Part shown: positions 3,528 through 45,111 of the stretch, piece by piece
Layout of the letters: every line of letters starts with the position of its first letter
Position numbering within the stretch: position 1 is the first letter of the stretch
Source of the DNA: Puniceicoccales bacterium
Lineage (GTDB): Bacteria > Verrucomicrobiota > Verrucomicrobiia > Opitutales > LL51
Assembly (NCBI GenBank): GCA_031257405.1
Contig: JAIROS010000017.1
Location: forward strand, 34,046-98,045
DNA: 64,000 nt
Direction of reading: 5' to 3'
Notes under the pieces: model-generated
What the model was told of the DNA's origin: nothing
Database searches by the model: none
The model's input: the letters and a program-made list of their open reading frames with translations, nothing else
Translations under genes and position numbers: made by a program

Positions 3528-3618
3528 CAGGCCCCGCGGCGTAGCCGCGGGGCCTGAGCGCCCTCAGCCCAAGGAGCATAGCTCCTCTTAAGGGGTTCAA
3601 GGGGAAGGAGTCCCCTTG
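3528..3618. repeat. GC-rich palindrome cluster, element A
   Basis: Perfect 13-bp stem with GTA loop at 3528-3556. aggagc-ata-gctcct at 3572-3586. caagggg-7nt-ccccttg at 3598-3618, overlapping the last codons of the PAP2 gene. 3529-3553 is identical to 34905-34929. Confidence 0.85.
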
Positions 3619-4112
3619 GAAATCCCCTTCGCTGGCGGAAATACAAACAATCTATCAATCAAAAATGCAATCGAAAATCCAACAATAACGTCCCGCCAAT
3701 GATGATATTGCCCATAAATTCGACTGTAGGCGGTCAAAGCAGCGAGCACGACCATCGGTGCCCCCCACCTCCACCCGTAGCGCCTGTACAAAAAAAATGC
3801 CCCCTGGAAAGAAGCCGCCGCGTGGCCCGACGGAAAAGATTTCGTCCCCCCATAGGGGCGAACGCCGATCGCCCAATCACCCGTAAAAAATTTTATACCC
3901 TGCACAACGATCACCATTAAAATAAGAGCACCGGTAAATTGCCCGAAGCCCTCCCGATCCCTGCGGAAAATACTCACCGCAAAACCCATACACGGAATGG
4001 CGATTTGTAAGTAATTTCCAGCTATTACCAGCGGTTCTCGACTACCCAAAATAAAAAAAAAGCAGCCTAAAATGGTCAATAAAAATATAATTCTCAAACC
4101 CTGAACACTCAT
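3597..4112 (-). CDS. PAP2-family membrane phosphatase
   Basis: KSFPSGHAA and SRIYGQYHHWRDV acid-phosphatase motifs, multiple TM helices. Start moved to Met67 (4112) because the upstream part of ORF 3597..4310 translates tRNA-Asp. Confidence 0.8.
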   Translation of the reverse strand: MSVQGLRIIFLLTILGCFFFILGSREPLVIAGNYLQIAIPCMGFAVSIFRRDREGFGQFTGALILMVIVVQGIKFFTGDWAIGVRPYGGTKSFPSGHAAASFQGAFFLYRRYGWRWGAPMVVLAALTAYSRIYGQYHHWRDVIVGFSIAFLIDRLFVFPPAKGISKGTPSP

Positions 4113-4164
4113 TTCAGGCCCAGTCTTTACGACATTTCCGCCGGTGTCAAGATTAAAAGTAGGC

Positions 4165-8120: not shown

Positions 8121-8283
8121 AATTCATCCTTCCACGGCCTATATAATACCAGAAAACTGAACCGCGTCAAGTTTTTTTTCGAAAAAAATATGAAATAAAT
8201 TATTTTTTATTTTTTGGGAGTTTAAAGAAAATTTCGTAAAGGATAAGTATTTTTTATTAAATTATAAAAAAAAGCAAAAAAAT

Positions 8284-8677
8284 GTTTTGCCTAGATATAA
8301 GCCGGATTCTGTAGGCTCTGCGCCCGGAATTCATTTATCTAATAACTTTTATAAGCTATTTCTCCCGGAGGAGATGCGACTAACCCGGAATAATCGGGCG
8401 AGCAACCCTATTCCTTATTTGTCTTGCACCGGATTGGGTTTCCATTGCGACGCCCATTGCTGCGCGCCCGGTGAGCCCTTACCTCGCCTTTTCACCCTTA
8501 CCTCGCGGCGGTATCCTTTCTGCTGTACTTTCCGTGGCCATCGTTTAGCGACAACCCCCGCACTTTCATGCGGAATCCTGCTCTGCGGTGTCCGGACTTT
8601 CCTATGGAGAAACGTTGCGGCGACAAAATATATCTCTCGTCCGCAGCCTCCCCCATCGAATTCCCTCTAGGCAAAAC
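8284..8677 (-). ncRNA. rnpB: RNase P RNA, bacterial type A
   Basis: Minus strand carries GGAAAGTCCGGAC (P4 5' strand), GGTAAGGGTGAAAAGGCGAGGTAAGGGCTCACC (P10-P12 region) and ACAGAATCCGGCTTAT (P4 3' strand). P1 pairs GTTTTGCCTAGA with TCTAGGCAAAAC at the two ends. Confidence 0.9.
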
Positions 8678-10097: not shown

Positions 10098-10213
10098 AAC
10101 GGTTTCTTTAATAAAAAAAATTTAAATTTACGAAAGCTTTTTTTTGAAAATATTTTTATTCACATATTTCCATTGATCTTCTGGGGAATTTCGTAGCATT
10201 ATTCACCCATCCG

Positions 10214-11254
10214 ATGGTCATCCTCACTGCTACGATAGTTTTAACGCTCATCACTTCCGCCGCCGCTTCCCTCCTCGAAGCAATCCTCTTTAGCGCCAAT
10301 GATATCGAACTCGAAGACCTCCGCGCCGTATCCAAACGGGCCGCCAATTATATCGAAAAATGTAAAAAAAATGTCGAAGAAACTTCCTCGGCCATCCTCA
10401 TGCTGAGTACCTTTGCCAATACATTTGGTTCGATTGTTGCGGGGGGGTTAGTGGTCAAAACTTACGGCGAAGATATGCTCATTTATTTTTCCATGAGTTT
10501 TACGCTGGCCATCCTGCTTTTCTCGGAAATTTTACCCAAAAATCTCGGCCTGATTTACCGAAAAAAATTATATATCCCCGCCACTTATCTGCTCAAATTG
10601 GTTGTTTCTGTTATGTATCCTTTTTCCTTGGCCTGCCGCTATTTTTTGAGGCTCATTATTGGGAAAAAGCGCGCCGATTCGGCGTATTCGGACCGGGAGA
10701 TCATGCTTTTGGCGGAAAAGAACGTACGCGACGGGACGCTCAGCCAACAGGAACGCAAGATGATCGAAAATACGCTCAAAATGGATTACACGGTGATTGC
10801 CCAGATCATGACGCCGCTGGATCACCTCAGCGCCTACAGTAAAAATATGACGGTCCGCGACGTATTCATTGCCAATAATGAGAATATTCCGGCGGGGCGC
10901 ATCCCGGTTTACTCCCACAATCCGGAGCATTTAATTGGCATTGTCCACCGGCGGAAAATTTTACACGCTTTTGCCACCAATGGCGCCAATATCCAACTGC
11001 GCCGCCTCATGGAAATCCCCAAAGCGCTCCCCGATAACATGTTTGTGGACGACGCGCTGGATGTTTTGCTAAAAAATTTAACGCAGCTTGCATTTGTAAA
11101 AAAAGATAATAAAATTGTCGGCGTACTGACCCTGGACGATATTTTTGAACACATTATTGGCATAGAAATTGCGGAAAATGACGATATTGCGGTCAAGCAG
11201 AGTGTGCAAAATGTCGCCAAGCGGAAGGTTAAATTCGAACGCAATACGCCATGA
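10214..11254 (+). CDS. CNNM/TlyC-CorC family protein (DUF21 membrane domain + CBS pair)
   Basis: N-terminal multi-TM DUF21-like region, SDREIMLLAEKNVRDGTLSQQERKMIENTLKMD linker typical of the family, two CBS-like modules. Confidence 0.85.
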   Translation: MVILTATIVLTLITSAAASLLEAILFSANDIELEDLRAVSKRAANYIEKCKKNVEETSSAILMLSTFANTFGSIVAGGLVVKTYGEDMLIYFSMSFTLAILLFSEILPKNLGLIYRKKLYIPATYLLKLVVSVMYPFSLACRYFLRLIIGKKRADSAYSDREIMLLAEKNVRDGTLSQQERKMIENTLKMDYTVIAQIMTPLDHLSAYSKNMTVRDVFIANNENIPAGRIPVYSHNPEHLIGIVHRRKILHAFATNGANIQLRRLMEIPKALPDNMFVDDALDVLLKNLTQLAFVKKDNKIVGVLTLDDIFEHIIGIEIAENDDIAVKQSVQNVAKRKVKFERNTP

Positions 11255-12951
11255 AATTGAGACAATTTTTACGCAACTCATTCCAAAACGCCGTCGATAA
11301 GTACCAGGGGATTTTTTTCCAGGAGAGCGAGCGACCCGACCCCAAGGGCGAGGAGGACGCCACTCCTACCGCCAATCAAAGCGAAAATGGACCTAATAAT
11401 CCCTTTGCCAGCGATTTCAAAGCCCTCGCCGATTTTTCGGAAAAATTAAACCAGCAAATCGAAAATAACGCCGACGACCTCATCATTATCGGCGATCCCA
11501 ACACCCCCCAAATGCCGTCCGCTTTCCCGTCACCTCCAGCCCAACAATCCCCCGTATCCCCAGTGAATATGCCGGCTTCCGACTTTACCGCGGGCGATGC
11601 CACCGCCACCTACACCACTTTTCCAACCCGGTCTTCTCCCCTCAGCGCCAGCGATTTCGCCGTCTCCGCACCTCCCCTATCCGGCGTCGCAAACCACAAT
11701 ACCGCCACAATACCCATTAATAGCGACTTCGGCAGCGATTTTGCCGTCGATACCCACGCTTCGGCAGTAGTCACCTCCGTCGGGAAAAAAACCAGTAAAC
11801 AAAAACAAAAACGGACGTCCTACAGCTTCACACCACGCCAGTCCAAAGAGAATCGGGAGGCTACAGCGGGGAGTGTCAAGAAAAAAAAGCAGTCGGGGTC
11901 TTTAAATTTAAAAATCGAGAAAAAAGCCCAAATGATCCGCCAATTATCGGCGCTACTCGACGCCGGAATGGATTTACGTTCTTCGCTGGCGATCCTCGAG
12001 GAACAGGAGGTCCGCAGTAAAAATATATGGTTTTTTATTCACGATTTATTTGTAAAAATCGAGGCCGGCGACTCCTTCTCGGACGCACTCGCGGCCTCTA
12101 TCGCAAAATTCGACGCATCCGAAATCGCCATGGTCCGCGCCGGAGAAGCCGTCGGAAAATTGGCCGAAACACTCGCTAAAATGGCTAGTTTGATGGAAAA
12201 AAAAGTTTATATCAAGAAAAAAATTACGTCGGCGATGTTTTACCCGGCGACGGTATTGGTGGTTTCGTCGGCCGTCGTCCTCCTCCTGACTACCTTCGTC
12301 GTCCCCAAATTCGAAAAAGTCATCGTCGACCAAATCGGAGCCAATGCCATGCCCAAATTAACCACCGCCATTATCGCCGTTAGCCGCTTCGTATCCACCC
12401 ACCTCCTCCAAGTATTTATCGCCCTGGGCCTCCTTGTCGCTCTATTTTTCGCCGTAAAAACGATTACACCCGTAAAAAAAATGTTCTACGGACTCCTTCT
12501 AAAAATGCCGCTCATTGGGAATTGTATAATGACGTGGTGTGTAGTGATTTTTTCGCGCACGTTTGGCGATTTACTGGTTTGCGGATGTTCTGTGGTGGAA
12601 TCGCTCAAAATGGCTCGGGAGAGTATCGGGAATTACTACATGAAGGAGAAATTGTCGTCCACCATTGAGGACATTCAGCAGGGGATGTCACTTACGGACT
12701 CGCTACGGCGGCGCAGTGTATTTCCGGCGATGGCGGAGGGGCTTATTAAGGTAGGGGAGGAGTCGGGCAAGCTGGGTGAGATGATGAACAAGGTCGCTTC
12801 GGCCTACGAGGAGCAGCTCAACGAAGTGATTGCGCGCATTACGTCGATGATTGAGCCTATTTTAGTGATATTTCTTGCGGGTTTTGTGGGGGCGGTTGTC
12901 ATTGGTCTTTTTCTTCCGCTAGTTTCGCTGATCCAGAATATTGCCACCTAA
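11251..12951 (+). CDS. Type II secretion / type IV pilus platform protein F family, with ~225-aa low-complexity N-terminal extension
   Basis: Two T2SSF-like halves (LSALLDAGMDLRSSLAIL... and FSRTFGDLLVCGCSVVESL...) with TM segments. C-terminal LFLPLVSLIQNI. Confidence 0.85.
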   Translation: MKLRQFLRNSFQNAVDKYQGIFFQESERPDPKGEEDATPTANQSENGPNNPFASDFKALADFSEKLNQQIENNADDLIIIGDPNTPQMPSAFPSPPAQQSPVSPVNMPASDFTAGDATATYTTFPTRSSPLSASDFAVSAPPLSGVANHNTATIPINSDFGSDFAVDTHASAVVTSVGKKTSKQKQKRTSYSFTPRQSKENREATAGSVKKKKQSGSLNLKIEKKAQMIRQLSALLDAGMDLRSSLAILEEQEVRSKNIWFFIHDLFVKIEAGDSFSDALAASIAKFDASEIAMVRAGEAVGKLAETLAKMASLMEKKVYIKKKITSAMFYPATVLVVSSAVVLLLTTFVVPKFEKVIVDQIGANAMPKLTTAIIAVSRFVSTHLLQVFIALGLLVALFFAVKTITPVKKMFYGLLLKMPLIGNCIMTWCVVIFSRTFGDLLVCGCSVVESLKMARESIGNYYMKEKLSSTIEDIQQGMSLTDSLRRRSVFPAMAEGLIKVGEESGKLGEMMNKVASAYEEQLNEVIARITSMIEPILVIFLAGFVGAVVIGLFLPLVSLIQNIAT

Positions 12952-15140: not shown

Positions 15141-15900
15141 GCTCAGGAAATTGGGGAAGCGCTGGTCGCTAAAATTAGCGGAATTTTTAGATTTTTTTTA
15201 TATTTTATTGCGGTCGCGGCTATTCCGTTTCATCGATTTCTGCGGTGTTATTTTAAAATTTTACTCAAAAAATTACCACTTCGCGAAAACGGACCTGGCT
15301 ATTATCAGCGAATATTGGCTCGACTCGCCCTTTGCGATCAGTCGGCGGTACCTGAAACTGAAACTCGAACCCGATGTGTACCAGTACGGTGAGACGCCCC
15401 TATTGACCCTCGAAAAAATCGCCCACTACGCCCACATCACGGAGCGGGATTGTGTATTTGAACTGGGCTGCGGGACGGGTCGCTGTGCCTTTTGGCTGGC
15501 GCACTTTACGGGCTGCCGCGTCGTCGGCATCGAACAAATTCCCGAATTCGTGGATTTCGCCAGTCAATTAGTAGGGAAAGGCGATATTTTAGCGGGGAAA
15601 ATCAGCTTTATTCGGGATGATTTTTTCAATGCTGATCTCAGTCCTGCGACGGCGATTTACTGCTACGGATCGAAGATGGACGACCATCAGATCGAGTCGC
15701 TCATCCTGAATCTCCGGGATACGCAGCCGGGAACAATCATAATCACCGTCAGCTACAGTTTGAATGAAATTATTGCTTCGAGTAAAAATCGGGCGATTTC
15801 GAGGGAATATTTCCCCATTATCGCCCAGTTCGATGGCGAATTTTCCTGGGGGAAAGCTACCGTTTTTATCCAAAAAAAATTACCACAATACCCATCCTAA
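15085..15900 (+). CDS. Class I SAM-dependent methyltransferase
   Basis: Motif I VFELGCGTGRCAF. The start is uncertain because the ORF overlaps the tgt 3' end by 56 nt. Confidence 0.7.
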   Translation: MRLGMGVLRKRYVLSHYLRLRKLGKRWSLKLAEFLDFFYILLRSRLFRFIDFCGVILKFYSKNYHFAKTDLAIISEYWLDSPFAISRRYLKLKLEPDVYQYGETPLLTLEKIAHYAHITERDCVFELGCGTGRCAFWLAHFTGCRVVGIEQIPEFVDFASQLVGKGDILAGKISFIRDDFFNADLSPATAIYCYGSKMDDHQIESLILNLRDTQPGTIIITVSYSLNEIIASSKNRAISREYFPIIAQFDGEFSWGKATVFIQKKLPQYPS

Positions 15901-16814
15901 GCCCTGGGATGCGCCCGATTGTACGCCGCCTGCATAAACCCAGAATGCACATGGGTGTAAATCTGCGTCGTCGATAAATGCGTGTGCCCCAAAAGCTCCT
16001 GCACCAAACGAAGATCAGCACCGCTATTGAGCATGTGAGTGGCGTAACTGTGGCGCAATTTGTGGGGACTTATATCCATCGGTAAATTCCCGTGCCGCAA
16101 ATAAAATTTCAGCCGATTCTGTACCTGCCGCGCCGTTAAACGCTCCCCACGCTCCTCAACGATCACCCACCGATCACAAGTCATAGCTATCCCCGTCCCC
16201 TCCCTAAATCGCTCCAGCGCCCGAACCGAATAACGGCCAATGGGACAAAGACGCTCCTTGCCCCCCTTGCCCAAAATTTTTACAGAACATCGCCCAAAAT
16301 CAATATCCCCGTAGCGCAACGATAGCAACTCGCCCAAACGCATGCCACTGTTGTAAAGCAATTCCAGGATCAGCGTGTCTCGCAAAAATAAAAATTTTGA
16401 AATTTTTTCCTCCCCAAATAGTTTTTCCGGCAGGTGAAGGAGTTGGGCGACCTCCTGCGGCGACAGAATTTTGGGTAAAGTTTTATCTTTTTTTGGTCCT
16501 TTGAGGTTCACAAATGGGTTAGCGGCGATTATTTTTTTCCGCTCCAGAAATACAAATAACGCTTTCAGGCCCGACAGACGATTGGCTACCGTCGATTTTT
16601 TATTACGCCCCCAAAACTCGATTAAATACTGGCGGACGGTCCATTCATCGACAGCTTCCCAGTCGCGGATCGCACTATAGTGCAGTAAAAAATTAATAAA
16701 TTTTTCAATAGATGTCACGTAACTCTCCAGCGTATGGGGCGACAATTGCCGCTCGACTTCCAGGGTGCGGATAAATTCGGCGTAGGGGAAATGCATGGGT
16801 CGGTTCCTTTCCAT
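15897..16814 (-). CDS. Tyrosine recombinase, XerC/XerD family
   Basis: N-terminal SAM-like domain and C-terminal catalytic signature HKLRHSYATHML...LLGHTHLSTTQIYTHV. Confidence 0.85.
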   Translation of the reverse strand: MERNRPMHFPYAEFIRTLEVERQLSPHTLESYVTSIEKFINFLLHYSAIRDWEAVDEWTVRQYLIEFWGRNKKSTVANRLSGLKALFVFLERKKIIAANPFVNLKGPKKDKTLPKILSPQEVAQLLHLPEKLFGEEKISKFLFLRDTLILELLYNSGMRLGELLSLRYGDIDFGRCSVKILGKGGKERLCPIGRYSVRALERFREGTGIAMTCDRWVIVEERGERLTARQVQNRLKFYLRHGNLPMDISPHKLRHSYATHMLNSGADLRLVQELLGHTHLSTTQIYTHVHSGFMQAAYNRAHPRA

Positions 16815-16885
16815 ATTTTCAATAAAAACGGGATTAACCCGCGATTTTACTTGACGGACGGCTTATTTTTGAATGTTTTAGGGGC

Positions 16886-17427: not shown

Positions 17428-18099
17428 TCACCTAGAATGCGGCGTTTCTGTATCTAAAATCCGGCCACCTACGCCGTCCACAGCCTCTTGCATGCTCCCC
17501 GTACTCCCACTAGCCGTCGAAAGCTTCCCGCCTCCCTCGGATAAATCCGTGTACCAACGCACTTGGCCGTCCAAAAAAGCTACAAAACCACCCTCCGCTC
17601 CCCAAACACCATCCGCTTGAGTCCAACGCCCATTGTATAAATCCAATCCCCTCGAAAATGCTACGGGAGTCGTCGCCGCAGTAACTTCCCGCGTAATGCA
17701 CCCAATCAAACAAACACTTAAATGCTTTCCCCCCTCCCAAGCATGCTGCCCATCATCAATCGGCCATACATTTTCCCGCAATACGTCCGCCGCTTTCTTA
17801 TCCCCGGGGAAAACAAAAATATGGGCATTATTGAGGTCACCACCCTGCGCACACCCCTCGATTAATTGCACGGTATTACTCGCATCGGGTATGAAGCCAT
17901 TGTCCTGATAATAGCGGCAGTACGTTTCTGCGATTTGCTTCATGTAGGCCCGCGCCTTCGACTTCCGCGCACTCGATAAAACTTTCTGCGCCGTCGGTAA
18001 AACAAGGGACATGAGTATGGTAATAATGCTGACCACCACGATCAGTTCTATGAGCGTAAAAGCCCTATTGTTTTTTAAATTTTTCATAATATTTTTCAT
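17428..18099 (-). CDS. Prepilin-type N-terminal methylation-domain pseudopilin (paralogue 1)
   Basis: A|FTLIELIVVVSIITILMSLVLP N-terminus (Ala rather than Gly at -1). C-terminal GGFVAFLDGQVRWY motif shared with the two neighbours. Confidence 0.8.
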   Translation of the reverse strand: MKNIMKNLKNNRAFTLIELIVVVSIITILMSLVLPTAQKVLSSARKSKARAYMKQIAETYCRYYQDNGFIPDASNTVQLIEGCAQGGDLNNAHIFVFPGDKKAADVLRENVWPIDDGQHAWEGGKHLSVCLIGCITREVTAATTPVAFSRGLDLYNGRWTQADGVWGAEGGFVAFLDGQVRWYTDLSEGGGKLSTASGSTGSMQEAVDGVGGRILDTETPHSR

Positions 18100-18103
18100 T
18101 TTA

Positions 18104-18856
18104 TTAATAATAATCGTAATAATCGTAATAATAACTACTTCCGCTTCCGCCGGAACTTCCGCTTCCGCCGGGACTTTCGCCCTTGCTGTAATTACTCACG
18201 TATCCAGCGCTGAGTACTCTGGCATCGCTGGGAATCGCCTCGGTAATCAGACTCGTCACATCCGTCATGTCCGCCCGCATCAATTTGCCAAAAACATTAT
18301 TGTCAAACCACTTCACTTGGCCGTCGAGAAAGGCAATAAAGCCACCCTTTCTCCCAAAAACACCTTGCCCTTCATCCCAACTACCGTCGCTATTCAAACC
18401 CCGCGTGTAAATAATGGGGGTGGTATTCGGCGGACAGGAATCGGATAAATTGATGACGATATTGACGCTAAATGTCTCGCCCGAAAAACAATAGGTTGGA
18501 CTCTGACCATCGGCTTGAACAAGGGTATCCTTTGTCGGTTTATTCGACGCTCTCGCCCCCGCATCCGACGAAAAAACGTAGCAATTGGGATCATTTAGCA
18601 GCCCTTCCCTCGCCAATATCTCGGAAAATTCCCTGATACTCCCCACCAATTGGCCACCTCCATTATAAAAATCGCCCTTATCTTCGCGGTACATCAGGTA
18701 AGCATTGGCGATTTGTTTGATGCAATTTTGGGCATTAGTTCTTCTGGAACGCTCCATGACGCCTCCGATGGAAGGCAAAACGAAGGCCATCAGCACGCCT
18801 ATGATCGAAACCACGACGATCAATTCAACTAGCGTAAATCCATTTTTTTTACCCAT
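18104..18856 (-). CDS. Prepilin-type pseudopilin (paralogue 2) with Gly/Ser then Tyr/Asp C-terminal tail
   Basis: MGKKNG|FTLVELIVVVSIIGVLMAFVLP, GGFIAFLDGQVKWF. Tail GGSGSSGGSGSSYYYDYYDYY. Confidence 0.8.
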   Translation of the reverse strand: MGKKNGFTLVELIVVVSIIGVLMAFVLPSIGGVMERSRRTNAQNCIKQIANAYLMYREDKGDFYNGGGQLVGSIREFSEILAREGLLNDPNCYVFSSDAGARASNKPTKDTLVQADGQSPTYCFSGETFSVNIVINLSDSCPPNTTPIIYTRGLNSDGSWDEGQGVFGRKGGFIAFLDGQVKWFDNNVFGKLMRADMTDVTSLITEAIPSDARVLSAGYVSNYSKGESPGGSGSSGGSGSSYYYDYYDYY

Positions 18857-19025
18857 TTTTATTCCAAAATTATCCGCTTTTTAGATTTCATCCGGAGTTT
18901 TTTCGCCGCCACCACTGTCGCCGCCGCCATCATTTGCCCCAAAGTACACGAACTACCGCCACTCGCCATCCGCCGTAAATCCATTTTTTTTACCCATTTT
19001 TATTCCAAAATTATCCGCTATTTAG
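18834..19025. repeat. Junction duplication (period 141 bp) copying the pseudopilin-2 start and upstream region
   Basis: gtaaatccattttttttacccatttttattccaaaattatccgct at 18834-18878 recurs at 18975-19019. The sequence between resembles the pseudopilin-3 3' end. Confidence 0.9.
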
Positions 19026-19037
19026 CACGATGCTTTA

Positions 19038-19823
19038 TTATAACACTTCGGGTTTGCTATCGCCGCCGCCACTCTCACTGCCCGTGCCATTTTCCTTCAC
19101 TCCACTCGCCTTCAAAACCGCCGCCGAACTCGGAATCGTCTGCAAAATATCATTCGTCGTCCCTCCGCCACCCCACGCCACTAACTTCCCCGCACTATTC
19201 CCTTCTTCACCATCCCCACCCAGATCCTCATACCACTCGACGTGCCCATCGAGATAAGCAATGTACCCCCCCTTGCTCCCATATACGCCGCCCTCCTTGG
19301 GATCACTTTTATTCTCGGGCCATCTGGCGACACCGCCACTTACCTCCGGAATCCCGCGGGTAAACGCAATGGGCGTCGTCGATAGCGGCGCATCCATCGG
19401 TACGTTATTGATCAGATAAACACTAAATTCTATGTCATCGTCGCCGTCCCAGGCGTTGTTATCCGCCAAACTCGAGTCCACGATCGCTTTTCTGACCACC
19501 TTCGACGCCCCACTATCTCCGGAAAAAGAATAAATATTGGGGTCATTCAAGTACCCGCCGCGCGCCAATACGAGTGCCCACTCCTTTCCCGTCGCCTTAT
19601 CGGTCAAATTAATATTGCGTCCATTGACGTCGTCGTTGCAGTACTGGCTATAGGCCATGGCGATTTGTTTCAAACAGTTGGCGCCTTTAGTCCGACGGGC
19701 GCTGTCCATCACCTTATTAACTGCGGGAACGAGTAACGAAATCAAAATCCCTATGACCGCGATCGCGATCAGCAGCTCAATCAGTGTAAATCCCCCGGTT
19801 ATTTTTTTTCTTTCCACTTTCAT
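19038..19823 (-). CDS. Prepilin-type pseudopilin (paralogue 3)
   Basis: KKITGG|FTLIELLIAIAVIGILISLLVP, GGYIAYLDGHVEWY. Confidence 0.8.
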   Translation of the reverse strand: MKVERKKITGGFTLIELLIAIAVIGILISLLVPAVNKVMDSARRTKGANCLKQIAMAYSQYCNDDVNGRNINLTDKATGKEWALVLARGGYLNDPNIYSFSGDSGASKVVRKAIVDSSLADNNAWDGDDDIEFSVYLINNVPMDAPLSTTPIAFTRGIPEVSGGVARWPENKSDPKEGGVYGSKGGYIAYLDGHVEWYEDLGGDGEEGNSAGKLVAWGGGGTTNDILQTIPSSAAVLKASGVKENGTGSESGGGDSKPEVL

Positions 19824-19907
19824 ATCCTGATTTGCTATTATTGATTTTTCGTCAAAAAGTCAAATAAAAATAAATAAAAATTATAAAAAAATTACGATTT
19901 TGGGGTA

Positions 19908-32300: not shown

Positions 32301-33368
32301 TTAAAACTTAGCGTCGAATTGTAAATCCGGAATGTTCCTAAAAAAAATACGCATATTTTCAGCGCGAATAATATCGCGTTCCTCCGGCGATAAATTCTTA
32401 TCGTACAAAACAACCAAATTCCCCGGCTGCGACTCTACCATGTAACGGTCAATTCCGGCGCGATTTTGCCCGTCAATGAGACCGCAGTCCGCCGCCAAAC
32501 GCATCCACGCTAACATCTCAAACGCCTCCTCGCTCTCCAGCGTGTAACAGGAACATAGCACACCGTAAATGCGGCCAATTTTGTTCAAAAATTGCGTGCG
32601 ACTATGCTTCAAAATCCCTTCGCGGGCCGATTTTTCCTGGTCAATAATCGTCTTAATCACGTGCTCCAAACGCTGAATCTCATCCGTTTCGCAAATGCCC
32701 AGCGTCTGCTGATTCGATATCTGATACATGTACCCCCGCGCCTGTGACCCCTCCCCGTGTACGCCGCGAACGACGATCCCAATCTGCTGGACCGCGTCGA
32801 TGAGGTGCTGAATCTGTTCCGCCATCCCTAATCCGGGGAGATGCAGCATAATGGAAGCGCGCATCCCCGTCCCCACATTACTGGGACACGCCGTCAAATA
32901 CCCCATCGGCTGGGAAAAAGCGTAGTAACCGTCGTCGATGGCGTCGTCGATGTCATTAATTTTTTTCCAAATGTCGCGCAATTGTAATCCGCTGCCGATC
33001 ACCTGTATCCGCAAATGGTCCTCCTCGTTAATCATGATCGACGCCAACGCCCTATCACTGCAAATCACGCCCGCCCCCACTTTCCTCTCCAGCAACTCCT
33101 TGCTAATCACACGCCGCTCCTGGAGGGCCAATTGTTCGGGTTTTTTGAGTTCCGACAGATCGATAAAAATTTTAAAATCTTTTAACTTTTGTACGTAATG
33201 TTTGGCGAAATTGAGGATTTCGGTACGTTCGCTATCCTTTGCGTTGGAAGGGAATCGGAATTGGGAAAAATTGCGCGCCAGCCGCACGCGGGAACTCACC
33301 ACAATCGGCTGACTATGCTCCTCGAAGCGCTTGCCGTACTCCAAAAGCAACTTTTTAACCGTTCTCAT
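32301..33368 (-). CDS. mcsB: Protein arginine kinase (ATP:guanido phosphotransferase)
   Basis: NEEDHLRIQ, CPSNVGTGMRASIMLHLPGL and HGEGS motifs. Confidence 0.9.
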   Translation of the reverse strand: MRTVKKLLLEYGKRFEEHSQPIVVSSRVRLARNFSQFRFPSNAKDSERTEILNFAKHYVQKLKDFKIFIDLSELKKPEQLALQERRVISKELLERKVGAGVICSDRALASIMINEEDHLRIQVIGSGLQLRDIWKKINDIDDAIDDGYYAFSQPMGYLTACPSNVGTGMRASIMLHLPGLGMAEQIQHLIDAVQQIGIVVRGVHGEGSQARGYMYQISNQQTLGICETDEIQRLEHVIKTIIDQEKSAREGILKHSRTQFLNKIGRIYGVLCSCYTLESEEAFEMLAWMRLAADCGLIDGQNRAGIDRYMVESQPGNLVVLYDKNLSPEERDIIRAENMRIFFRNIPDLQFDAKF

Positions 33369-33855
33369 GCCTTAGCGAGCGCAACGCATCCCTAATCCTC
33401 GCCGCCTCCTCGAAACGCTCCCCCTCTATCGCCAGCCGCAACTTTTCTTCGAGGGACTCCCGTGTCAACGTTTTTTTTGCGTGGACGGTAAAGCATTTGG
33501 GTTGTTTACCGATGTGATCCAAATTTTTTTGCATATTTTCGATAAGGGGCAGGAGTTTTTCCCGCAACGATTCGTAGCACTGGGGACACCCCAAATTGCC
33601 TGTTTTTTTAAAAAGTTCCACGGTATAGCCACAATATTCGCAGCAATCGTGTGTTGTTATGGCTGGGTTAAGGTCGCCGAAAAGGGCGGTGCCGATATTT
33701 TTAGTCACGGAAAATGGCATCACATTACTGGTCAACACCCCGTAACTGCGCGCGCACGCCTCGCATAAATTGATTGTTTGTTTTATGCTATGGACGATTT
33801 GTTCGATGTGGACCGCCGCTGGTTTTCCGCAAATACTACACTTGAGTGATTCCAT
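33355..33855 (-). CDS. mcsA: McsA-like activator (zinc-finger pairs + UVR domain)
   Basis: CSICGK...CEAC and CEYCG...CPQC Cys pairs, C-terminal UVR motif LEEKLRLAIEGERFEEAARIRDAL. Overlaps mcsB by 14 nt. Start moved to MESLKCSICG (33855). Confidence 0.85.
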   Translation of the reverse strand: MESLKCSICGKPAAVHIEQIVHSIKQTINLCEACARSYGVLTSNVMPFSVTKNIGTALFGDLNPAITTHDCCEYCGYTVELFKKTGNLGCPQCYESLREKLLPLIENMQKNLDHIGKQPKCFTVHAKKTLTRESLEEKLRLAIEGERFEEAARIRDALRSLRHENG

Positions 33856-34075
33856 AAACAAAAATTTTACCCCATCGCCATCCCGCCGTCGACCGTGACC
33901 ACCGCGCCCGTTATGTAACTCGCCCCAGCAGAACACGAATGGGTAATTTGTTCGATGTGGACCGCCGCCGGTTTCCCGCAAATACTACACTTGAGTGATT
34001 CCATAAACAAAAATTTTACCCCATCGCCATCCCGCCATCGACCGTGACCACCGCGCCCGTTATGTAACTCGCCCC
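33797..34075. repeat. Tandem duplication (period 149 bp) spanning the mcsA 5' end, the intergenic region and the fabG 3' end
   Basis: 130-bp copies at 33797-33926 and 33946-34075 differ at about 3 positions. They create a pseudo fabG 3' end and a pseudo mcsA start (ATG complement at 34002-34004). Confidence 0.95.
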
Positions 34076-34762
34076 TTCGGAGCATAAAAAATCCACGGCG
34101 TGGGCGATATCTTCGGGAGTCCCCATGCGCTTCATGGGAATCAATTTTTTGGTTTCTTCAATAATTTTTTCGGACAGCGCGGCGGTCATATCGCTTTCGA
34201 TGAACCCGGGCGCCACTACGTTGACGCAAATCCCGCGGGAAGCGACCTCCTTCGCCACCGACCTGCTAAAACCAATCATCCCCGCCTTCGCCGCAGCATA
34301 ATTCGCTTGCCCAAAATTACCAGTTTTACCAATAATTGAAGAAATATTTACAATTCTGCCCCAGCGATTCTGTACCATCCCCCGCAAAAGATGTTTGGTC
34401 CAGTGAAAACAGCTGCTCAAATTCGTCCCAATCACATCCTCCCAATCCTCCGTACTCATCCGCATCAGCAACGCATCGCGCGTAATCCCAGCATTATTGA
34501 CCAAAATATCAATCGCACCGTGCTTCGCCAGTAAATCCCCACAAATTAACTCCACTGCCCCCCCGTCGGAAACATCCACGGAAATCGCTCCCGCTTCTCC
34601 ACCACCGGCAATAATCTCCTGGGCAATTTGCTCGCAATTCTTCGAACGACTAACACAAATCACGTAAATCGACCGCCGCGCCAATTTTTTCGCAATCGCC
34701 GCCCCTAAACCACGGCCAGCCCCCGTCACTAACGCAACCCGCTTCTCTCCGACTCCTACCAC
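34016..34762 (-). CDS. fabG: 3-oxoacyl-[ACP] reductase
   Basis: KRVALVTGAGRGLGAAIA (TGxxxGxG), NNAG, SSIIGKTGNFGQANYAAAKAG (YxxxK), ITGAVVTVDGGMAMG. GTG start at 34762 is proposed (249 aa) because the longer ORF runs through palindromic element B. Confidence 0.9.
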   Translation of the reverse strand: MVGVGEKRVALVTGAGRGLGAAIAKKLARRSIYVICVSRSKNCEQIAQEIIAGGGEAGAISVDVSDGGAVELICGDLLAKHGAIDILVNNAGITRDALLMRMSTEDWEDVIGTNLSSCFHWTKHLLRGMVQNRWGRIVNISSIIGKTGNFGQANYAAAKAGMIGFSRSVAKEVASRGICVNVVAPGFIESDMTAALSEKIIEETKKLIPMKRMGTPEDIAHAVDFLCSEGASYITGAVVTVDGGMAMG

Positions 34763-34861
34763 AAACCCATTATGGCCGCATCCCCCCCTAACGTCAATAG
34801 GGATTTTTAAAATAATTTTTTCACCACCTATAGAAATAATTATATCGGGCTTCCGCCCCCT

Positions 34862-34939
34862 CCCAGGCCCCGCCAGGAGTCGTAGACTCCTTGGCCTGCT
34901 TCGCAGGCCCCGCGGCGTAGCCGCGGGGCGGGGCCTGGG
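34862..34939. repeat. GC-rich nested palindrome, element B (78 nt, cloverleaf-shaped)
   Basis: An 11-bp perfect closing stem (34862-34872 with 34929-34939) encloses three hairpins with GTA, TTC and GTA triloops. 34905-34929 is identical to 3529-3553. Confidence 0.9.
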
Positions 34940-35023
34940 CTTAGGTCTGCACAAAAATTCACCTCCTGTGAAGGGATTAAAAAAAAGATATCTTCTTTTC
35001 CGGCGGGCTTTATTTTTACATTT

Positions 35024-37813
35024 CTATCGTCGTCGACAAATCCGTGCGCGTTGCCTCCTTCGTTCCGCTTTTTCGATCTCGGATTCATCCCCATCTTCTG
35101 CGCCTCTGCGGAATATTTTACCCCAATTTAACTTTATTTTCTCAGGTTTATAGGTCGCCTTTTCGAAGGAAGGCCTCTCGTAGTCGTTAGTTAAAATAAA
35201 TTCATCCGGTTTCAGCGTCGGTTCTCCCGCCAAATTGCCCTCCGTAAAGAAGCGACTCAGCTGCGCCGTCTGGGTATCATCGTGGTGGATAATGGTCGGC
35301 GTGATGATATAAATCCGCTCCGTCACACTATTGCCGCGGTTACTCATTTTAAACAGATGGCCGATGAGTGGGATATCTTTCAGGATGGGGATACCGGCGG
35401 AACTGACTTCGTGTATTTCTTTGAAGGAGCCGCCGATAAATAGACTCTGCCCCTCGAAAACCGATGCCTCCGTATTGACCGTCCGCGTCGTGGTACCCGG
35501 ACCACTGGAGCCCTGACGCGGATTAGTAGTAAACCCACCGTCTTGGACCTCAATTAACAATTTAATTTTTGGCATACCGTTGGCATCAAATTCCCCCATA
35601 ATAATATGGGGGACCACCGTTAATTTAGTGGAGACCGTCACGTCGAATAGCCCGCCCGCCTTTGCTCCTTGGGTTTCCACGTAGGCGGTTTCGGACGTAT
35701 CGATCACGGCGCCGATATTATCCAAAGTAATGACCGACGAGCGGATTAGCGTCTGTCCATTGCCGACCTCCTCCAGGATATTCAGCGTTTCGGACATGGA
35801 ATAATTTTTAAATAATTTATCAAAATTCATAACCAAACTCGCCTCTGTGGCATCCAAAAAATTAAAGGAAATGCGCTTCGATTTTTTTTCCGCGTCCGCT
35901 GCTGTGGTACCAGCGCCTCCAGCGGCTACCGCCATACGCCGATTAGCTTCCAATTTGGAACGTATTTTTAGGGAACCGGATTTGGTGATATCCACTACGG
36001 CGATCTCGATTTTCAGCGCATCCCTGGAGACGTCCAGTTGCTGAATAATGCTCTCAATAAAGGGCATATCCTGGCGCTTGGCTTTGACAATAACCGCATT
36101 TAAACGCGTATCAAAGGTAACAAAAATATCGCTCAAATTGAGGGGATTTTTTTCCCCTCCCTGGGGGGCCATTTTACCCACGTCTTTGGCTTCGCTGCTA
36201 TCTTTTTTAGCTTTTTCGGCGTGGTAGGCGGTCCCGGGTATGGCTTTTGCCGCAGTCGCTCCACCGGCCTTCGAATTGTCGATCTGTAACCCAATGCTGC
36301 TCTCGCCGACAGGCCCCGTTATCGCTCCCACCATCTGCTGTAGCATCGTCGCAACACCCGGAATATTCATGTTCCCACCGCGGTAATTGACTATCATATC
36401 GTAGGCCCAAGCGTGTTTCAGCGGAAAAGAACGAATGTCGTACACATTGCTGACGCGTTCGATTACAATTTTTTTAGAAAGTTCTTCTATGAGGGACATG
36501 AGTTTAGGGGGGCCGCTCACCACTAAAATACCGGCGGTTTCCAGGGGTCTGAAGGTCACATTGGAGCTCAAAAATCCGAGCTGCGAAATGACCCTAACCA
36601 GGGTACGCATCTCATCGCGATTCATCTGGTAGACCGACGACGACACTTCGTCGCTCTTGTAAACATACATCATACTGCCGTCAAAAAACCAAACTAATCC
36701 GTAGGCATTGATGATATCTTTCCAGAATTGGTGGGGGGTAACGTTACTAAATTTTCCATTGACGACGTCGGCGACTTTATCGCTCACGATGACGTCCATC
36801 GACTGCATCACACAGAAATTGCGGATTAATTCTTTCAGCTCCTGATTTTTAGCGAAGTGGTAATATTCTGCGGTTTTCCAGGGCAGACGGTCAGCGGGGT
36901 CGCCTTCGGTAAGGGCCATTGAAGTGACTATTTCGACGGAACTCAGGTCGATGAGGGGGGTTATTGAATCGCCCATGACTTTACGGGTTAGCGGAATTTC
37001 GCTAGATTTTTCCTGGGCATTTGCTATTGGCGCCGCTGGCGATACAGCCGCCGCTGGCAATGGTCCTGAAATATTTTCATTTAGTGACGATCCCGAAATA
37101 TTTGTTACTGGCGCTGCAGGCAATATAGCTACCGCAGGCAACGATTCCGGAGCATTTGTTACTGGCGTTGCAGGCAATACAGCCGACGCAGGCGGGGGTC
37201 CTGAAACATTTTCATTTAGCAATGGTCCCGGAGTATTTCCATTTGGCAACGATCCCGAAATATTTGTTATTGGCGCTGCAGGCAATACAGCCGCCGCAGG
37301 CAATGGTTCCGAAATATTTGTTATTGGCAATGGTCCTGAAATATTTGTTACTGAATCCACTGGCAATACAGCTGCCGCTGGCAATGGTTCCGGAATATCT
37401 GTTACAGCTGCCGCAGGCAATACAGCCGCCGCTGGCAATGGTCCCGGAGTATTTCCATTTGGCAACGATCCCGAAATATTTGTTATTGGCGCTGCTGGCG
37501 ATATAGCCGACGCTGGCAATGATCCCGGAGTATCCCCAGCCGGAACCACTCCCGACGCTGAACCCTTGGCCCCCATAGCCCTCTTGGGCCCATCAATAAT
37601 GTATATGTCCTTCCTGTTCTTCGGTATCACTCCCCCCGCCTCCAATCCACTCGATACACCCGCTAACGCTCCCCCAGTAGCCGTAGCCCCCCTCTCGCTA
37701 CCCTCCGCCCTGTGAATTAAATCCGAATCACGGCTCAATAATGCGCAAGAAAATGATAATGCCGATAGGCCACAAACTGTGTAAAAAATCCCCTTCATCT
37801 CCCTAAAACCCAA
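35024..37813 (-). CDS. sctC: Type III secretion system secretin with ~300-aa repeat-rich N-terminal extension
   Basis: N0-like YGLVWFFDGSMMYVYKSDE. SctC hallmark FPLKHAWAYDMIVNYRGGNMNIPGVATMLQQMV. Secretin core ending GIPILKDIPLIGHLFKMSNRGNSVTERIYIITPTII. Confidence 0.85.
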   Translation of the reverse strand: MGFREMKGIFYTVCGLSALSFSCALLSRDSDLIHRAEGSERGATATGGALAGVSSGLEAGGVIPKNRKDIYIIDGPKRAMGAKGSASGVVPAGDTPGSLPASAISPAAPITNISGSLPNGNTPGPLPAAAVLPAAAVTDIPEPLPAAAVLPVDSVTNISGPLPITNISEPLPAAAVLPAAPITNISGSLPNGNTPGPLLNENVSGPPPASAVLPATPVTNAPESLPAVAILPAAPVTNISGSSLNENISGPLPAAAVSPAAPIANAQEKSSEIPLTRKVMGDSITPLIDLSSVEIVTSMALTEGDPADRLPWKTAEYYHFAKNQELKELIRNFCVMQSMDVIVSDKVADVVNGKFSNVTPHQFWKDIINAYGLVWFFDGSMMYVYKSDEVSSSVYQMNRDEMRTLVRVISQLGFLSSNVTFRPLETAGILVVSGPPKLMSLIEELSKKIVIERVSNVYDIRSFPLKHAWAYDMIVNYRGGNMNIPGVATMLQQMVGAITGPVGESSIGLQIDNSKAGGATAAKAIPGTAYHAEKAKKDSSEAKDVGKMAPQGGEKNPLNLSDIFVTFDTRLNAVIVKAKRQDMPFIESIIQQLDVSRDALKIEIAVVDITKSGSLKIRSKLEANRRMAVAAGGAGTTAADAEKKSKRISFNFLDATEASLVMNFDKLFKNYSMSETLNILEEVGNGQTLIRSSVITLDNIGAVIDTSETAYVETQGAKAGGLFDVTVSTKLTVVPHIIMGEFDANGMPKIKLLIEVQDGGFTTNPRQGSSGPGTTTRTVNTEASVFEGQSLFIGGSFKEIHEVSSAGIPILKDIPLIGHLFKMSNRGNSVTERIYIITPTIIHHDDTQTAQLSRFFTEGNLAGEPTLKPDEFILTNDYERPSFEKATYKPEKIKLNWGKIFRRGAEDGDESEIEKAERRRQRARICRRR
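37010..37540 (-). repeat. In-frame imperfect tandem repeats inside sctC (Pro/Ala-rich; higher-order period 216 bp)
   Basis: AAPITNISGSLPNGNTPGPL occurs at aa 107-126 and 179-198. Interspersed (E/G)PLPAAAVLPAAP(I/V)TNIS units span aa ~93-266. Confidence 0.9.
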
Positions 37814-41010: not shown

Positions 41011-41173
41011 ATCTGGCCGCTTTTTTGACCATTTTTTGCGGCAAAAGCCGTGCATGAAATGCACAGGGTGTAAAACAAAGTTTTATACCCTCCAAAGCGT
41101 TTTGGACGCTTTGGGCTTTTGCCGTCACAAAAAATTCACTTGCTGGGGGCGACAAAATTCGCTCTATGGGGGC

Positions 41174-45023: not shown

Positions 45024-45111
45024 TTCGGGCAAAAGCTGCGCGCAAAGCGCGCAAAAACATGAACTCCGTTCATGTTTTCAAGGAGCTTTGCTCCTTAAGC
45101 TTTTGCCCGAA
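45024..45111. repeat. Nested palindrome, element C (88 nt, perfect four-way junction)
   Basis: A 14-bp closing stem (45024-45037 with 45098-45111) encloses hairpins at 45038-45052 (6 bp, AAA loop), 45054-45078 (11 bp, TCC loop) and 45080-45096 (7 bp, TTT loop). All stems are perfect Watson-Crick with 0-1 nt linkers. Confidence 0.92.

What the first reader, a model, noticed from the sequence alone, without database searches (positions are those of the whole stretch)
34862..34939. Element B: 78-nt cloverleaf-shaped nested palindrome between sctC and fabG
An 11-bp perfect closing stem (cccaggccccg / cggggcctggg) encloses three consecutive hairpins with 3-nt loops: ccaggagtc-GTA-gactccttgg, ggcctgc-TTC-gcaggcc and ccccgcggc-GTA-gccgcgggg. 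The overall shape is tRNA-like, but it has no D/T-loop consensus and triloops instead of 7-nt loops. It sits ~85 nt after the sctC stop and ~100 nt before the proposed fabG start. Likely roles are an RNA 3'-end/stability element, a protein-binding four-way junction, or a cruciform-forming DNA site.
Basis: seen in the sequence. Interest (0 to 1): 0.65.

Follow-up and report, generated by a model that had tools for sequence, protein, structure and literature searches.

The report
Flippable cloverleaf palindrome repeat element
The 78-base "cloverleaf" is real, but it is not a tRNA-like gene: it is one copy of a family of self-complementary DNA repeats found between genes in a group of termite-gut bacteria, and it sits in the opposite orientation in the closest related genome.

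Summary
Window 34862-34939 folds on either strand into a 13-bp closing stem around three 7-bp triloop hairpins (-69 kcal/mol, z -6 to -7), 84 nt after the sctC stop and 99 nt before the fabG start. It is not tRNA-like, has no Rfam match and is not a canonical terminator.

It belongs to a lineage-specific family of GC-rich palindromic modules in termite-gut Puniceicoccales MAGs. Sister genomes carry the same hairpins (CCCGCGGC-nnn, CAAGGAGTC-nnn) in 250-350-nt mosaic arrays after sctC and before the fabG promoter. The window holds two sibling cloverleaves (41038-41125, 45024-45111).

The element behaves as DNA:
- In the closest relative it is 77/78 identical but inverted relative to its flanks.
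- It is absent from the next closest relatives.
- A sibling type has an extra copy in a close relative where the window has 51 nt.
- Stems change by compensatory doubles, with almost no G·U pairs.
- Loops are mostly cGNAg, the DNA mini-hairpin motif.

Best reading: a REP/MITE-like nested palindrome kept perfect, flipped and spread through hairpin-mediated template switching or an unseen hairpin-specific transposase. Any effect as an sctC 3'-UTR structure is inferred. It is a new variant of a known kind, of moderate interest.

The parts
34862..34939 (.). Element B: 78-bp nested palindrome (four-way junction on either strand)
   Evidence: The copy in L021/L025 is 77/78 identical but inverted relative to its flanks.
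34862..34874 (.). Left arm of the 13-bp closing stem / inverted repeat (CCCAGGCCCCGCC)
   Evidence: The arms are unchanged in the inverted L021 copy, so the flip is bounded by them.
34927..34939 (.). Right arm of the closing stem (GGCGGGGCCTGGG)
34875..34891 (.). Hairpin 1, AGGAGTC-GTA-GACTCCT: a copy of the family module CAAGGAGTC-nnn-GACTCCTTG
   Evidence: The module occurs in L001, L002 (five copies), L003, L004, L006, L007, L008, L015 and L020 with different triloops. It is aligned in A3.
34893..34909 (.). Hairpin 2, GGCCTGC-TTC-GCAGGCC (GCGAAGC mini-hairpin motif on the - strand). It stands where relatives have a long variable hairpin or a small CTCCC-gta-GGGAG hairpin.
34910..34926 (.). 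Hairpin 3, CCGCGGC-GTA-GCCGCGG (extendable to 34907-34929): a copy of the family module (G)CCCCGCGGC-nnn-GCCGCGGGG(C)
   Evidence: The same stem occurs at window 3528-3556 and in L001, L002, L003, L006, L007, L008, L015 and L020.
41038..41125 (.). Sibling cloverleaf (88 nt; closing stem GCGGCAAAAGCC) between yidD and uppS
   Evidence: Its orthologue in L023 has 5 substitutions and is all Watson-Crick. Covariance-model hit at 66 bits.
45024..45111 (.). Sibling cloverleaf (88 nt; closing stem TTCGGGCAAAAGCT) between the convergent genes hpf and leuS
   Evidence: It has an orthologue in L024 and is absent from L022. A paralogue lies at L024:4021-4113.
3528..3556 (-). Simple hairpin CAGGCCCCGCGGC-GTA-GCCGCGGGGCCTG, the same module as hairpin 3 and the base of B's closing stem. 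On the - strand it is followed by TTTTTTT, so it is terminator-like.
3560..3620 (.). Degenerate family modules next to the 3528 hairpin (AAGGAGC-ata-GCTCCTC; CAAGGGGA-aggag-TCCCCTTG)
34769..34797 (-). Context: sigma-70-like fabG promoter TTGACG-17-CATAAT, 64 nt downstream of B on the transcribed strand. It is conserved in relatives with and without B.
35024..37813 (-). Context: sctC (type III secretin) ORF. B lies in its 3' flank.
34016..34762 (-). Context: fabG-like short-chain dehydrogenase, GTG start

Best explanation
B is one copy of a lineage-specific family of non-coding, GC-rich nested palindromes. The family is REP/BIME- or MITE-like and fills intergenic DNA in a clade of termite-gut Puniceicoccales (Verrucomicrobiota).

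Shown:
- B's hairpins are recognisable family modules.
- In sister genomes the same modules, in the same order relative to sctC and fabG, form 250-350-nt mosaic arrays.
- In this lineage they are condensed and enclosed by a 13-bp inverted repeat, which creates the four-way junction.
- The unit is flipped, gained and lost between close relatives.
- Its stems evolve by paired changes on both arms.

Inferred mechanism: the palindromes extrude as hairpins in single-stranded DNA during replication. The cGNAg triloops are the most stable DNA hairpin caps. Intra-element template switching then copies one arm from the other. That process would keep stems perfectly Watson-Crick on both strands, produce 'compensatory' doubles in one step, extend closing stems, and invert loops or the whole unit between its inverted repeats. 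A hairpin-specific (HUH-type) transposase that has not been seen here is the alternative engine for dispersal.

Inferred consequence at this site: B is transcribed at the end of the sctC message, upstream of fabG's own promoter. In either orientation it would form a structure of about -69 kcal/mol that can block 3' exonucleases or impede read-through. This would be a by-product that may be tolerated or mildly useful, not the reason the element exists.
For: Family membership:
- A hairpin census finds conserved stems with varying loops in 9 genomes.
- L002 carries 7 composite copies in 20 kb.
- B(-) aligns with the arrays after sctC in L007, L015 and L002 (A3).
- B(-) also aligns with the three-hairpin array before the fabG promoter in L003:13897-13957.
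- L003:19691-19766 is a B-like cloverleaf at another locus.

DNA-level behaviour:
- L021 and L025 carry B at the same site, 77/78 identical but inverted, while every flank is collinear.
- B is absent from L013 and L014, which keep the same sctC-fabG junction and promoter.
- The 45024 type is absent from L022.
- It has a second, oppositely oriented copy at L024:4021, where the window has only 51 nt.

Palindrome maintenance:
- Six cloverleaves have about 209 Watson-Crick pairs, only 5 G·U pairs, and near-equal energies on both strands.
- Three 45024-type copies show 8 pairs changed on both sides against 1 G·U and 4 unpaired cells.

Loops:
- 46 of 80 triloops are GNA on one strand, against 12.5% expected, and 59 of 80 are closed by C-G.
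- GCGNAGC is an extraordinarily stable DNA mini-hairpin and is much weaker as RNA (PMC13037366).

Negatives:
- No tRNA or Rfam identity.
- No U-tract after B.
Against: - No transposase or HUH gene was found in about 330 kb of available sequence, so the dispersal engine is unknown.
- No consistent target-site duplications were seen.
- Only 64 kb of the source genome is visible, so B's copy number there is unknown.
- B is far more conserved (98.7%) than its flanks: spacers 64-84%, coding 88-92%, P about 0.001. This could mean sequence-level function rather than recent homogenisation.
- Composite arrays face the same way relative to transcription in 4 of 4 co-directional contexts.
- The window's 41038 copy carries its three wobbles on the transcribed strand.

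The last two points hint weakly at RNA-level selection.
Confidence: 0.55

Rival explanations
1. B is a selected RNA element. It would be a 3'-UTR stabiliser or read-through insulator of the sctC transcript, a very stable four-way junction that stops 3'-5' exonucleases and separates sctC from the fabG promoter. The DNA-level features would be side effects of structural selection.
For: - Position between the stop codon and the next promoter.
- Related multi-hairpin arrays start within a few nt of stop codons in L001, L002, L007 and L015.
- Composite orientation is TAAGGGC-first relative to transcription in 4 of 4 co-directional cases.
- Three G·U pairs lie on the transcribed strand in the 41038 element, while its relative is all Watson-Crick.
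- Compensatory changes occur.
- B is more conserved than its flanks.
Against: - B is inverted in the closest relative, so its RNA there is the complement.
- It is absent from the next closest relatives, which have the same gene junction.
- Cloverleaves also sit between divergent genes (L024:4021, L003:19691).
- There is no U-tract.
- There are almost no G·U pairs, and the triloops are of the DNA-favoured cGNAg type rather than RNA tetraloops.
- One wobble (L003:16429) is on the non-transcribed strand.
Confidence: 0.2
2. B is a DNA site recognised as a junction or cruciform by a host protein and used for a cellular function. Candidates are nucleoid or gyrase anchoring as proposed for BIMEs, a single-strand priming or hairpin-promoter signal, or an invertase-driven switch.
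For: - A perfect four-way junction with no linker bases forms on both strands.
- cGNAg mini-hairpins act in ssDNA priming sites and in phage N4 hairpin promoters (PMC13037366).
- The segment is found in both orientations, bounded by inverted repeats.
- All six clear examples have three hairpins.
Against: - No invertase or junction-specific gene lies next to it. Its neighbours are sctC, fabG, mcsA and mcsB. The only recombinase in the window is a Xer-like gene 18 kb away.
- There is no promoter inside.
- Inner hairpin sequences are not conserved between copies.
- The element is dispensable in close relatives.
Confidence: 0.1
3. B is a degenerate tRNA or tRNA-like gene, another known ncRNA, or a chance fold.
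For: Only the superficial cloverleaf outline.
Against: - ARAGORN and Rfam find the five real tRNAs and RNase P RNA but nothing here. The best sub-threshold hits reach 17-20 bits against 52-70-bit cut-offs.
- Helices are 13/7/7/7 bp with 3-nt loops and no linkers.
- None of 200 shuffles folds as well.
- Homologous copies exist elsewhere.
Confidence: 0.02

Closest known systems
REP / BIME elements and REPIN-RAYT systems of proteobacteria
   Same: - Short GC-rich extragenic palindromes.
- Clustered in mosaic combinations between genes, mostly just after stop codons.
- High density in some genomes and absent from close relatives.
- Able to act as mRNA 3' barriers.
- REPINs are hairpin-forming doublets conserved at orthologous sites.
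   Different: - Unrelated sequences in a different phylum.
- Perfect rather than imperfect stems.
- 3-nt cGNAg loops.
- Units nested inside a closing stem to give a four-way junction instead of a single long hairpin.
- No RAYT gene found in the sequence available.
Bacterial MITEs (Correia, RPE, Nezha, BOX-type modular repeats)
   Same: - Non-coding units of 76-93 bp with terminal inverted repeats (the closing stem).
- Dispersed paralogous copies.
- Presence/absence differences between close relatives.
   Different: - No consistent target-site duplication.
- No parent IS with matching ends seen.
- Copies share architecture and closing stem while their inner hairpins differ.
Double-hairpin elements and GC clusters of fungal mitochondrial DNA (from my own knowledge: Paquin, Laforest and Lang 2000; Weiller 1989)
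   Same: - Small GC-rich multi-hairpin elements in AT-richer intergenic DNA.
- Structure conserved more than sequence.
- Insertion polymorphism.
- No coding capacity.
   Different: - Organellar, not bacterial.
- Two tandem hairpins without an enclosing stem.
Minute hairpin-associated inversions in chloroplast non-coding DNA (from my own knowledge: Kelchner and Wendel 1996) and quasi-palindrome template-switch mutation in E. coli (Ripley 1982; Dutra and Lovett 2006)
   Same: - A short segment between short inverted repeats flips between close relatives.
- Imperfect palindromes are 'corrected' to perfect ones by copying one arm from the other.
   Different: - There the flipped piece is a simple loop of a few to tens of nt.
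- Here it is a 52-nt block that itself holds three hairpins.
- The mechanism is inferred here, not demonstrated.
T- or Y-shaped nested palindromes of ssDNA replicons (AAV/parvovirus ITRs, Streptomyces telomere 3' overhangs) and GCGNAGC DNA mini-hairpins (PMC13037366)
   Same: - A closing stem enclosing small hairpins with 3-nt loops.
- GNA loops closed by C-G.
   Different: - Those sit at the ends of linear replicons and prime replication.
- B is an internal, chromosomal, intergenic element with three inner hairpins.

Membership tests
tRNA / tRNA-like structure | 7-bp acceptor stem, D/anticodon/T arms with 7-8-nt loops, conserved T-loop and D-loop bases | tested here: not met
   ARAGORN finds 5 tRNAs elsewhere and none here. 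Rfam RF00005 gives no hit here, even at E<=10. Helices are 13/7/7/7 bp with 3-nt loops.
Rho-independent terminator | GC-rich hairpin immediately followed by a U-tract on the transcribed strand | tested here: not met
   No T-run follows the closing stem on either strand. The related simple hairpin at 3528-3556 does have TTTTTTT on the - strand.
REP/BIME-type extragenic palindromes | Short GC-rich palindromic units confined to intergenic DNA | tested here: met
   All modules lie between ORFs. They are enriched 15-30-fold over shuffles in L003 and L015.
REP/BIME-type extragenic palindromes | Many copies per genome, combined in recurring mosaics | tested here: inconclusive
   Met in relatives: 7 composites in 20 kb of L002, and recurring module order. 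In the source genome only 64 kb is visible, with 3 cloverleaves and one array.
REP/BIME-type extragenic palindromes | Cognate RAYT (Y1/HUH transposase) gene | tested here: inconclusive
   None was found by tblastn with a YafM sequence recalled from memory over all loci, nor by Pfam in window ORFs. The whole genomes were not searchable.
MITE | Terminal inverted repeats | tested here: met
   Closing stems of 11-15 bp. The GGGCAAAAGC core is shared by the 41038, 45024 and L024 copies.
MITE | Target-site duplication flanking each copy | tested here: not met
   No consistent direct repeat flanks B, the L021 copy, or the L024:4021 insertion.
MITE | Dispersed paralogous copies and occupied versus empty sites | tested here: met
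   L024 holds two copies 3.7 kb apart, and the window lacks one of them. L022 is empty at the 45024 site. L013 and L014 are empty at the B site.
Invertible DNA switch (inverton) | Segment bounded by inverted repeats and found in both orientations | tested here: met
   Window versus L021/L025: 77/78 identical in the opposite orientation, with collinear flanks. This is between lineages only.
Invertible DNA switch (inverton) | Both orientations within one population; adjacent invertase; promoter or other asymmetric signal inside | tested here: not met
   No invertase lies next to it and no promoter lies inside. Within-population mixtures could not be tested because no reads are available.
Any Rfam RNA family | Score at or above the family's gathering threshold | tested here: not met

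The most novel reading that the evidence does not exclude
The cloverleaf would itself be the unit of a so far undescribed class of non-autonomous bacterial mobile DNA. In this reading it is a four-way-junction-forming nested palindrome, always a closing stem plus three cGNAg-capped hairpins. It would be recognised by shape rather than sequence, in single-stranded or cruciform DNA. It would then be copied, flipped and inserted by a structure-specific enzyme or replication pathway, which would explain why architecture and closing stems persist while inner hairpins turn over.
Probability: 0.2. Interest if true: 0.8.

Novelty: new variant of a known kind. Interest (0 to 1): 0.55.

Why it matters
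This gives an uncultured, host-associated verrucomicrobial clade its own REP/MITE-like repeat system. Three features are unusual:
- Units are nested into perfect four-way junctions.
- Loops are of the DNA mini-hairpin type.
- A whole 78-bp unit is caught in both orientations between close relatives.

Practical consequences:
- The elements coincide with synteny breakpoints around the type III secretion locus.
- They mislead gene callers, which extend fabG and uppS start calls through them.
- They will break assemblies and confuse terminator or ncRNA prediction in these MAGs.

If the arm-to-arm copying mechanism holds, the family is a natural example of 'compensatory' stem evolution without RNA-level selection. 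That is a caution for covariation-based RNA discovery.

Tried and rejected
- tRNA, tmRNA or a known RNA family: ARAGORN and Rfam were negative in both gathering and E<=10 modes.
- Canonical terminator: no U-tract.
- Exact look-ups of the window's own proteins returned nothing, so the source contig is not on record.
- The single metagenome scan, with the window's Ffh, returned only three relatives at 46-47% identity and was wasted.
- A viral-contig scan for CAAGGAGTCnnnGACTCCTTG found nothing.
- tblastn with an E. coli RAYT sequence recalled from memory found nothing. This is weak evidence.
- A Pfam sweep of 44 window ORFs found no transposase, only a Xer-like recombinase 18 kb away.
- Literature searches for nested palindromes, cloverleaf REPs and Puniceicoccales T3SS found nothing relevant.
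- I first guessed that L003:16429 was the orthologue of 41038. tblastn synteny showed it lies between mcsB and a TPK-like gene, a site that is empty in the window.
- No covariance model was built for the B type, because the copies share too little alignable sequence. The model of the 45024 type found no further strong copies beyond those already seen.
- Target-site duplications were looked for and none was consistent.

Full report
OBSERVATION

Window 34862-34939 reads CCCAGGCCCCGCC | AGGAGTC-GTA-GACTCCT | T | GGCCTGC-TTC-GCAGGCC | CCGCGGC-GTA-GCCGCGG | GGCGGGGCCTGGG. ViennaRNA returns this four-way junction as the minimum-energy fold on both strands. With 11-12 nt of flank on each side the energies are -72.3 and -75.1 kcal/mol, with z-scores of -6.2 and -7.3, and none of 200 dinucleotide shuffles folds as well. 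DNA parameters give the same fold at about -41 kcal/mol on either strand.

A fold scan of all 64 kb, and a faster inverted-repeat-seeded scan, find only three objects of this kind: 34862-34939, 41038-41125 and 45024-45111. Each has an 11-14-bp closing stem, three hairpins, 3-nt loops and 0-1 junction bases.

ARAGORN and Rfam find five real tRNAs and RNase P RNA in the window but nothing at the element, even at E<=10.

CONTEXT

Genes here run on the minus strand.
- ORF 35024-37813 carries Secretin, Secretin_N and T3S N0 domains, so it is sctC.
- ORF 34016-34762 is a FabG-type short-chain dehydrogenase. Its GTG start is placed by homology to the gene call in L013.
- B lies 84 nt after the sctC stop and 99 nt before that GTG.
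- A TTGACG-17-CATAAT promoter-like site lies at 34797..34769(-), 64 nt beyond B.
- No T-run follows B on either strand.

The siblings lie between yidD and uppS (co-directional, + strand) and between the convergent genes hpf and leuS.

The secretin's homologues are named 'MAG: Puniceicoccales bacterium'. They come from the JAIR/JAIS/JAIT MAG series and JGI samples 33000426xx. The isolate and contig names suggest termite-gut metagenomes, but I did not verify the habitat.

B BELONGS TO A CLADE-WIDE FAMILY OF PALINDROMIC MODULES

I fetched 12 loci around secretin orthologues and further contigs by exact-protein look-up.

A census of perfect GC-rich hairpins shows 0.4-1.8 per kb in L001-L004, L006-L008 and L015. 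Shuffles of L003 and L015 give about 0-1 per locus, against 15 and 30 observed. L005 and L009-L014 have essentially none.

The same stems recur in many genomes with different loops:
- CAAGGAGTC-nnn-GACTCCTTG
- (G)CCCCGCGGC-nnn-GCCGCGGGG(C)
- [AG]TGGGGC-nnn-GCCCCA[CT]
- CCAGGGGA-nnnn-TCCCCTGG
- CTAAGGGC-nnnnn-GCCCTTAG
- long variable hairpins

They are strung in a recurring order into 250-350-nt composites. L002 has seven composites in 20 kb, and L015 has them in four intergenic regions.

B's hairpins 1 and 3 are two of these modules. The simple hairpin at window 3528-3556 is the same module as hairpin 3 and as the base of B's closing stem.

Read in the sctC direction, B(-) aligns with the composites that follow sctC in L007, L015 and L002 (A3). 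It also aligns hairpin for hairpin with an unenclosed three-hairpin array just upstream of the fabG promoter in L003: GCCCCGCGGC-ttc-…, CTCCC-gta-GGGAG, AAGGAGTC-tgt-…. L003:19691-19766 is a B-like cloverleaf at a different locus.

So B is a condensed, enclosed derivative of a family array, not a one-off.

B BEHAVES AS DNA THAT MOVES AND FLIPS

Four comparisons with relatives bear on this.

1. Inversion. L021 (JGI 3300042618) is collinear with window 23.6-37 kb at 86-91% nucleotide identity. It carries the element at the same place. BLAST and MAFFT show L021(+) matching window(+) at 77/78, while every flanking block matches window(-). A Logan assembly (L025, SRR14710901) is identical to L021 across this intergenic region. 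The 13-bp arms are unchanged, so the flip is bounded by the closing-stem inverted repeats. Any k-mer longer than the 13-bp arm links a flank to one end of the interior, so an assembly artefact is unlikely (inference).

2. Absence of B. L013 and L014 have secretins 81% and 76% identical. They keep the sctC-fabG junction and the promoter block but have no element, with intergenic spacers of 123 and 54 nt.

3. Fate of the sibling cloverleaves.
- The 41038 cloverleaf is present in the same orientation in L023.
- The 45024 cloverleaf is present in the same orientation in L024.
- The 45024 type is absent from L022, which instead has an ordinary hairpin plus T-run.

4. An extra paralogue. L024 has a second, oppositely oriented copy at 4021-4113, between divergently transcribed lgt and an aminoacyl-tRNA synthetase gene. 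The window has only 51 nt at that position.

Gene order around sctC differs among relatives, and the breakpoints sit at these elements:
- sctC-[element]-fabG in the window, L013 and L021.
- sctC-[element]-ffh … [array]-fabG in L003.
- sctC-[element]-uppS in L015.

HOW THE STEMS EVOLVE

- Six clear cloverleaves hold about 209 Watson-Crick pairs and five G·U pairs. They fold about equally on both strands.
- Three copies of the 45024 type were aligned (A10). They have 41 pairs, 96.7% of cells paired, 8 pairs changed on both sides, one G·U and four unpaired cells. Slid controls give 25-50% pairing.
- Between the window and L024, hairpin 2 of the 45024 element carries two A-T to G-C double changes.
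- Among 80 triloop hairpins of the clade, 46 have GNA on one strand, against 12.5% expected (binomial P about 1e-21, though copies are not independent). 59 are closed by C-G.
- GCGNAGC is the 'mini-hairpin DNA' motif. It is extraordinarily stable as DNA and much less so as RNA (PMC13037366).
- Within one element the GNA loops lie on different strands (B: GTA, TTC, GTA). That fits loop or unit flipping better than one-strand selection.

MECHANISM

The preferred explanation is a REP/MITE-like family whose palindromes extrude as hairpins in single-stranded DNA and are copied arm from arm by template switching. One process would then account for five features:
- Watson-Crick-only stems on both strands.
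- One-step 'compensatory' doubles.
- Extension of B's closing stem from the 6 complementary bases already present in the ancestral array (CCCCGC/GCGGGG, A3) to 13 bp.
- Loop and unit inversion.
- Indels.

This step is inferred from precedent that I cite from my own knowledge: quasi-palindrome correction in E. coli and minute hairpin inversions in chloroplast DNA.

A hairpin-specific HUH transposase is the alternative engine, but none was found. Whole genomes could not be searched.

At this site B is expected to be part of the sctC 3' UTR. In either orientation it would form a very stable junction that can impede 3' exonucleases or read-through into the separately promoted fabG. This is plausible but untested.

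POINTS THAT KEEP THE RNA RIVAL ALIVE

- B is 98.7% conserved while its spacers are 64-84% and its coding flanks 88-92% identical, P about 0.001 at 11% divergence. This means either real constraint or recent homogenisation or re-insertion.
- Composite arrays face the same way relative to transcription in all four fully resolved co-directional contexts.
- The window's 41038 copy differs from its all-Watson-Crick orthologue by three transitions, all giving G·U on the transcribed strand. By chance this is 1 in 8.

Points against the RNA rival:
- The inversion.
- Dispensability in close relatives.
- Copies in divergent promoter regions.
- The loop type.
- One wobble on the non-transcribed strand.

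A model built from the three 45024-type copies (R1) gives the following hits:
- The 41038 element at 66 bits and its L023 orthologue at 83 bits.
- B and its L021/L025 copies at 30-32 bits (E about 1e-4; E-values are rough).
- Only sub-threshold hits on the linear arrays.

The three window elements therefore share an architecture that is detectable above background. No further strong copies exist in the 331 kb held.

VERDICT

B is a new, architecturally unusual variant of a known kind, extragenic palindromic repeats or MITE-like elements. Its function beyond repeat dynamics is unproven.

Noticed in passing
window 34757-34800 (- strand); also L013, L014, L021, L003:14030-14050: The fabG GTG start (34762) lies only 6 nt after the -10-like CATAAT of a conserved TTGACG-17-CATAAT site. 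This suggests a leaderless mRNA. A similarly conserved block (AAAATTCACTTGCTG…GCTCTATGG) directly precedes the in-frame ATG of uppS at 41174.
   Followed up: partly
window 34016-34954 (TTG ORF); L021 2585-3400; L023 1521-2348: Automatic gene calls in relatives extend fabG (271-274 aa) and uppS (275 aa) upstream. The uppS call runs through the cloverleaf, so the palindromes cause start-codon mis-calls.
   Followed up: partly
window 3528-3556 and 3560-3620: A perfect 13-bp hairpin followed by TTTTTTT on the minus strand (terminator-like) lies between tRNA-Asp and mraZ. Degenerate family modules sit next to it.
   Followed up: partly
window 35024 / L003 11926-12188 / L015 12565-12856: Synteny breakpoints around sctC coincide with the palindromic elements. 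sctC is followed by fabG in the window, ffh in L003 and uppS in L015. This suggests the repeats mediate rearrangements.
   Followed up: partly
L002 1-20340: A composite palindromic element of about 300 nt occurs roughly every 2.5-3 kb, seven copies in 20 kb, so it fills almost every intergenic region sampled. L005 has a secretin of similar identity and has none.
   Followed up: partly
L023 1498-1599 versus window 41031-41132: The relative's copy has an extra 24-nt segment (CGCAACAAAGTCGCAACAAAAAAT) that makes the closing stem 18 bp (TTTGTTGCGGCAAAAGCC). The window copy lacks it and carries three G·T wobbles.
   Followed up: no
window 6888-8123(-), 8832-10121(-), 8282-8660(-): Two ankyrin-repeat ORFs flank the RNase P RNA gene. 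Ankyrin proteins together with a type III secretion system suggest a host-associated or intracellular lifestyle.
   Followed up: no
window 15897-16862(-): A Xer-like tyrosine recombinase (Phage_integrase plus SAM-like N domain). It is the only recombinase seen in the window and lies 18 kb from B.
   Followed up: no
window 32301-33981(-): An McsA-like (UVR motif) and McsB-like (ATP:guanido phosphotransferase) gene pair lies downstream of fabG. The pair is conserved in all relatives examined.
   Followed up: no
window 17428-19859(-), 11233-12951(+): Three consecutive ORFs with prepilin-type N-terminal methylation motifs, plus a T2SS protein F gene. These point to a type II secretion or type IV pilus-like system in addition to the T3SS.
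   Followed up: no
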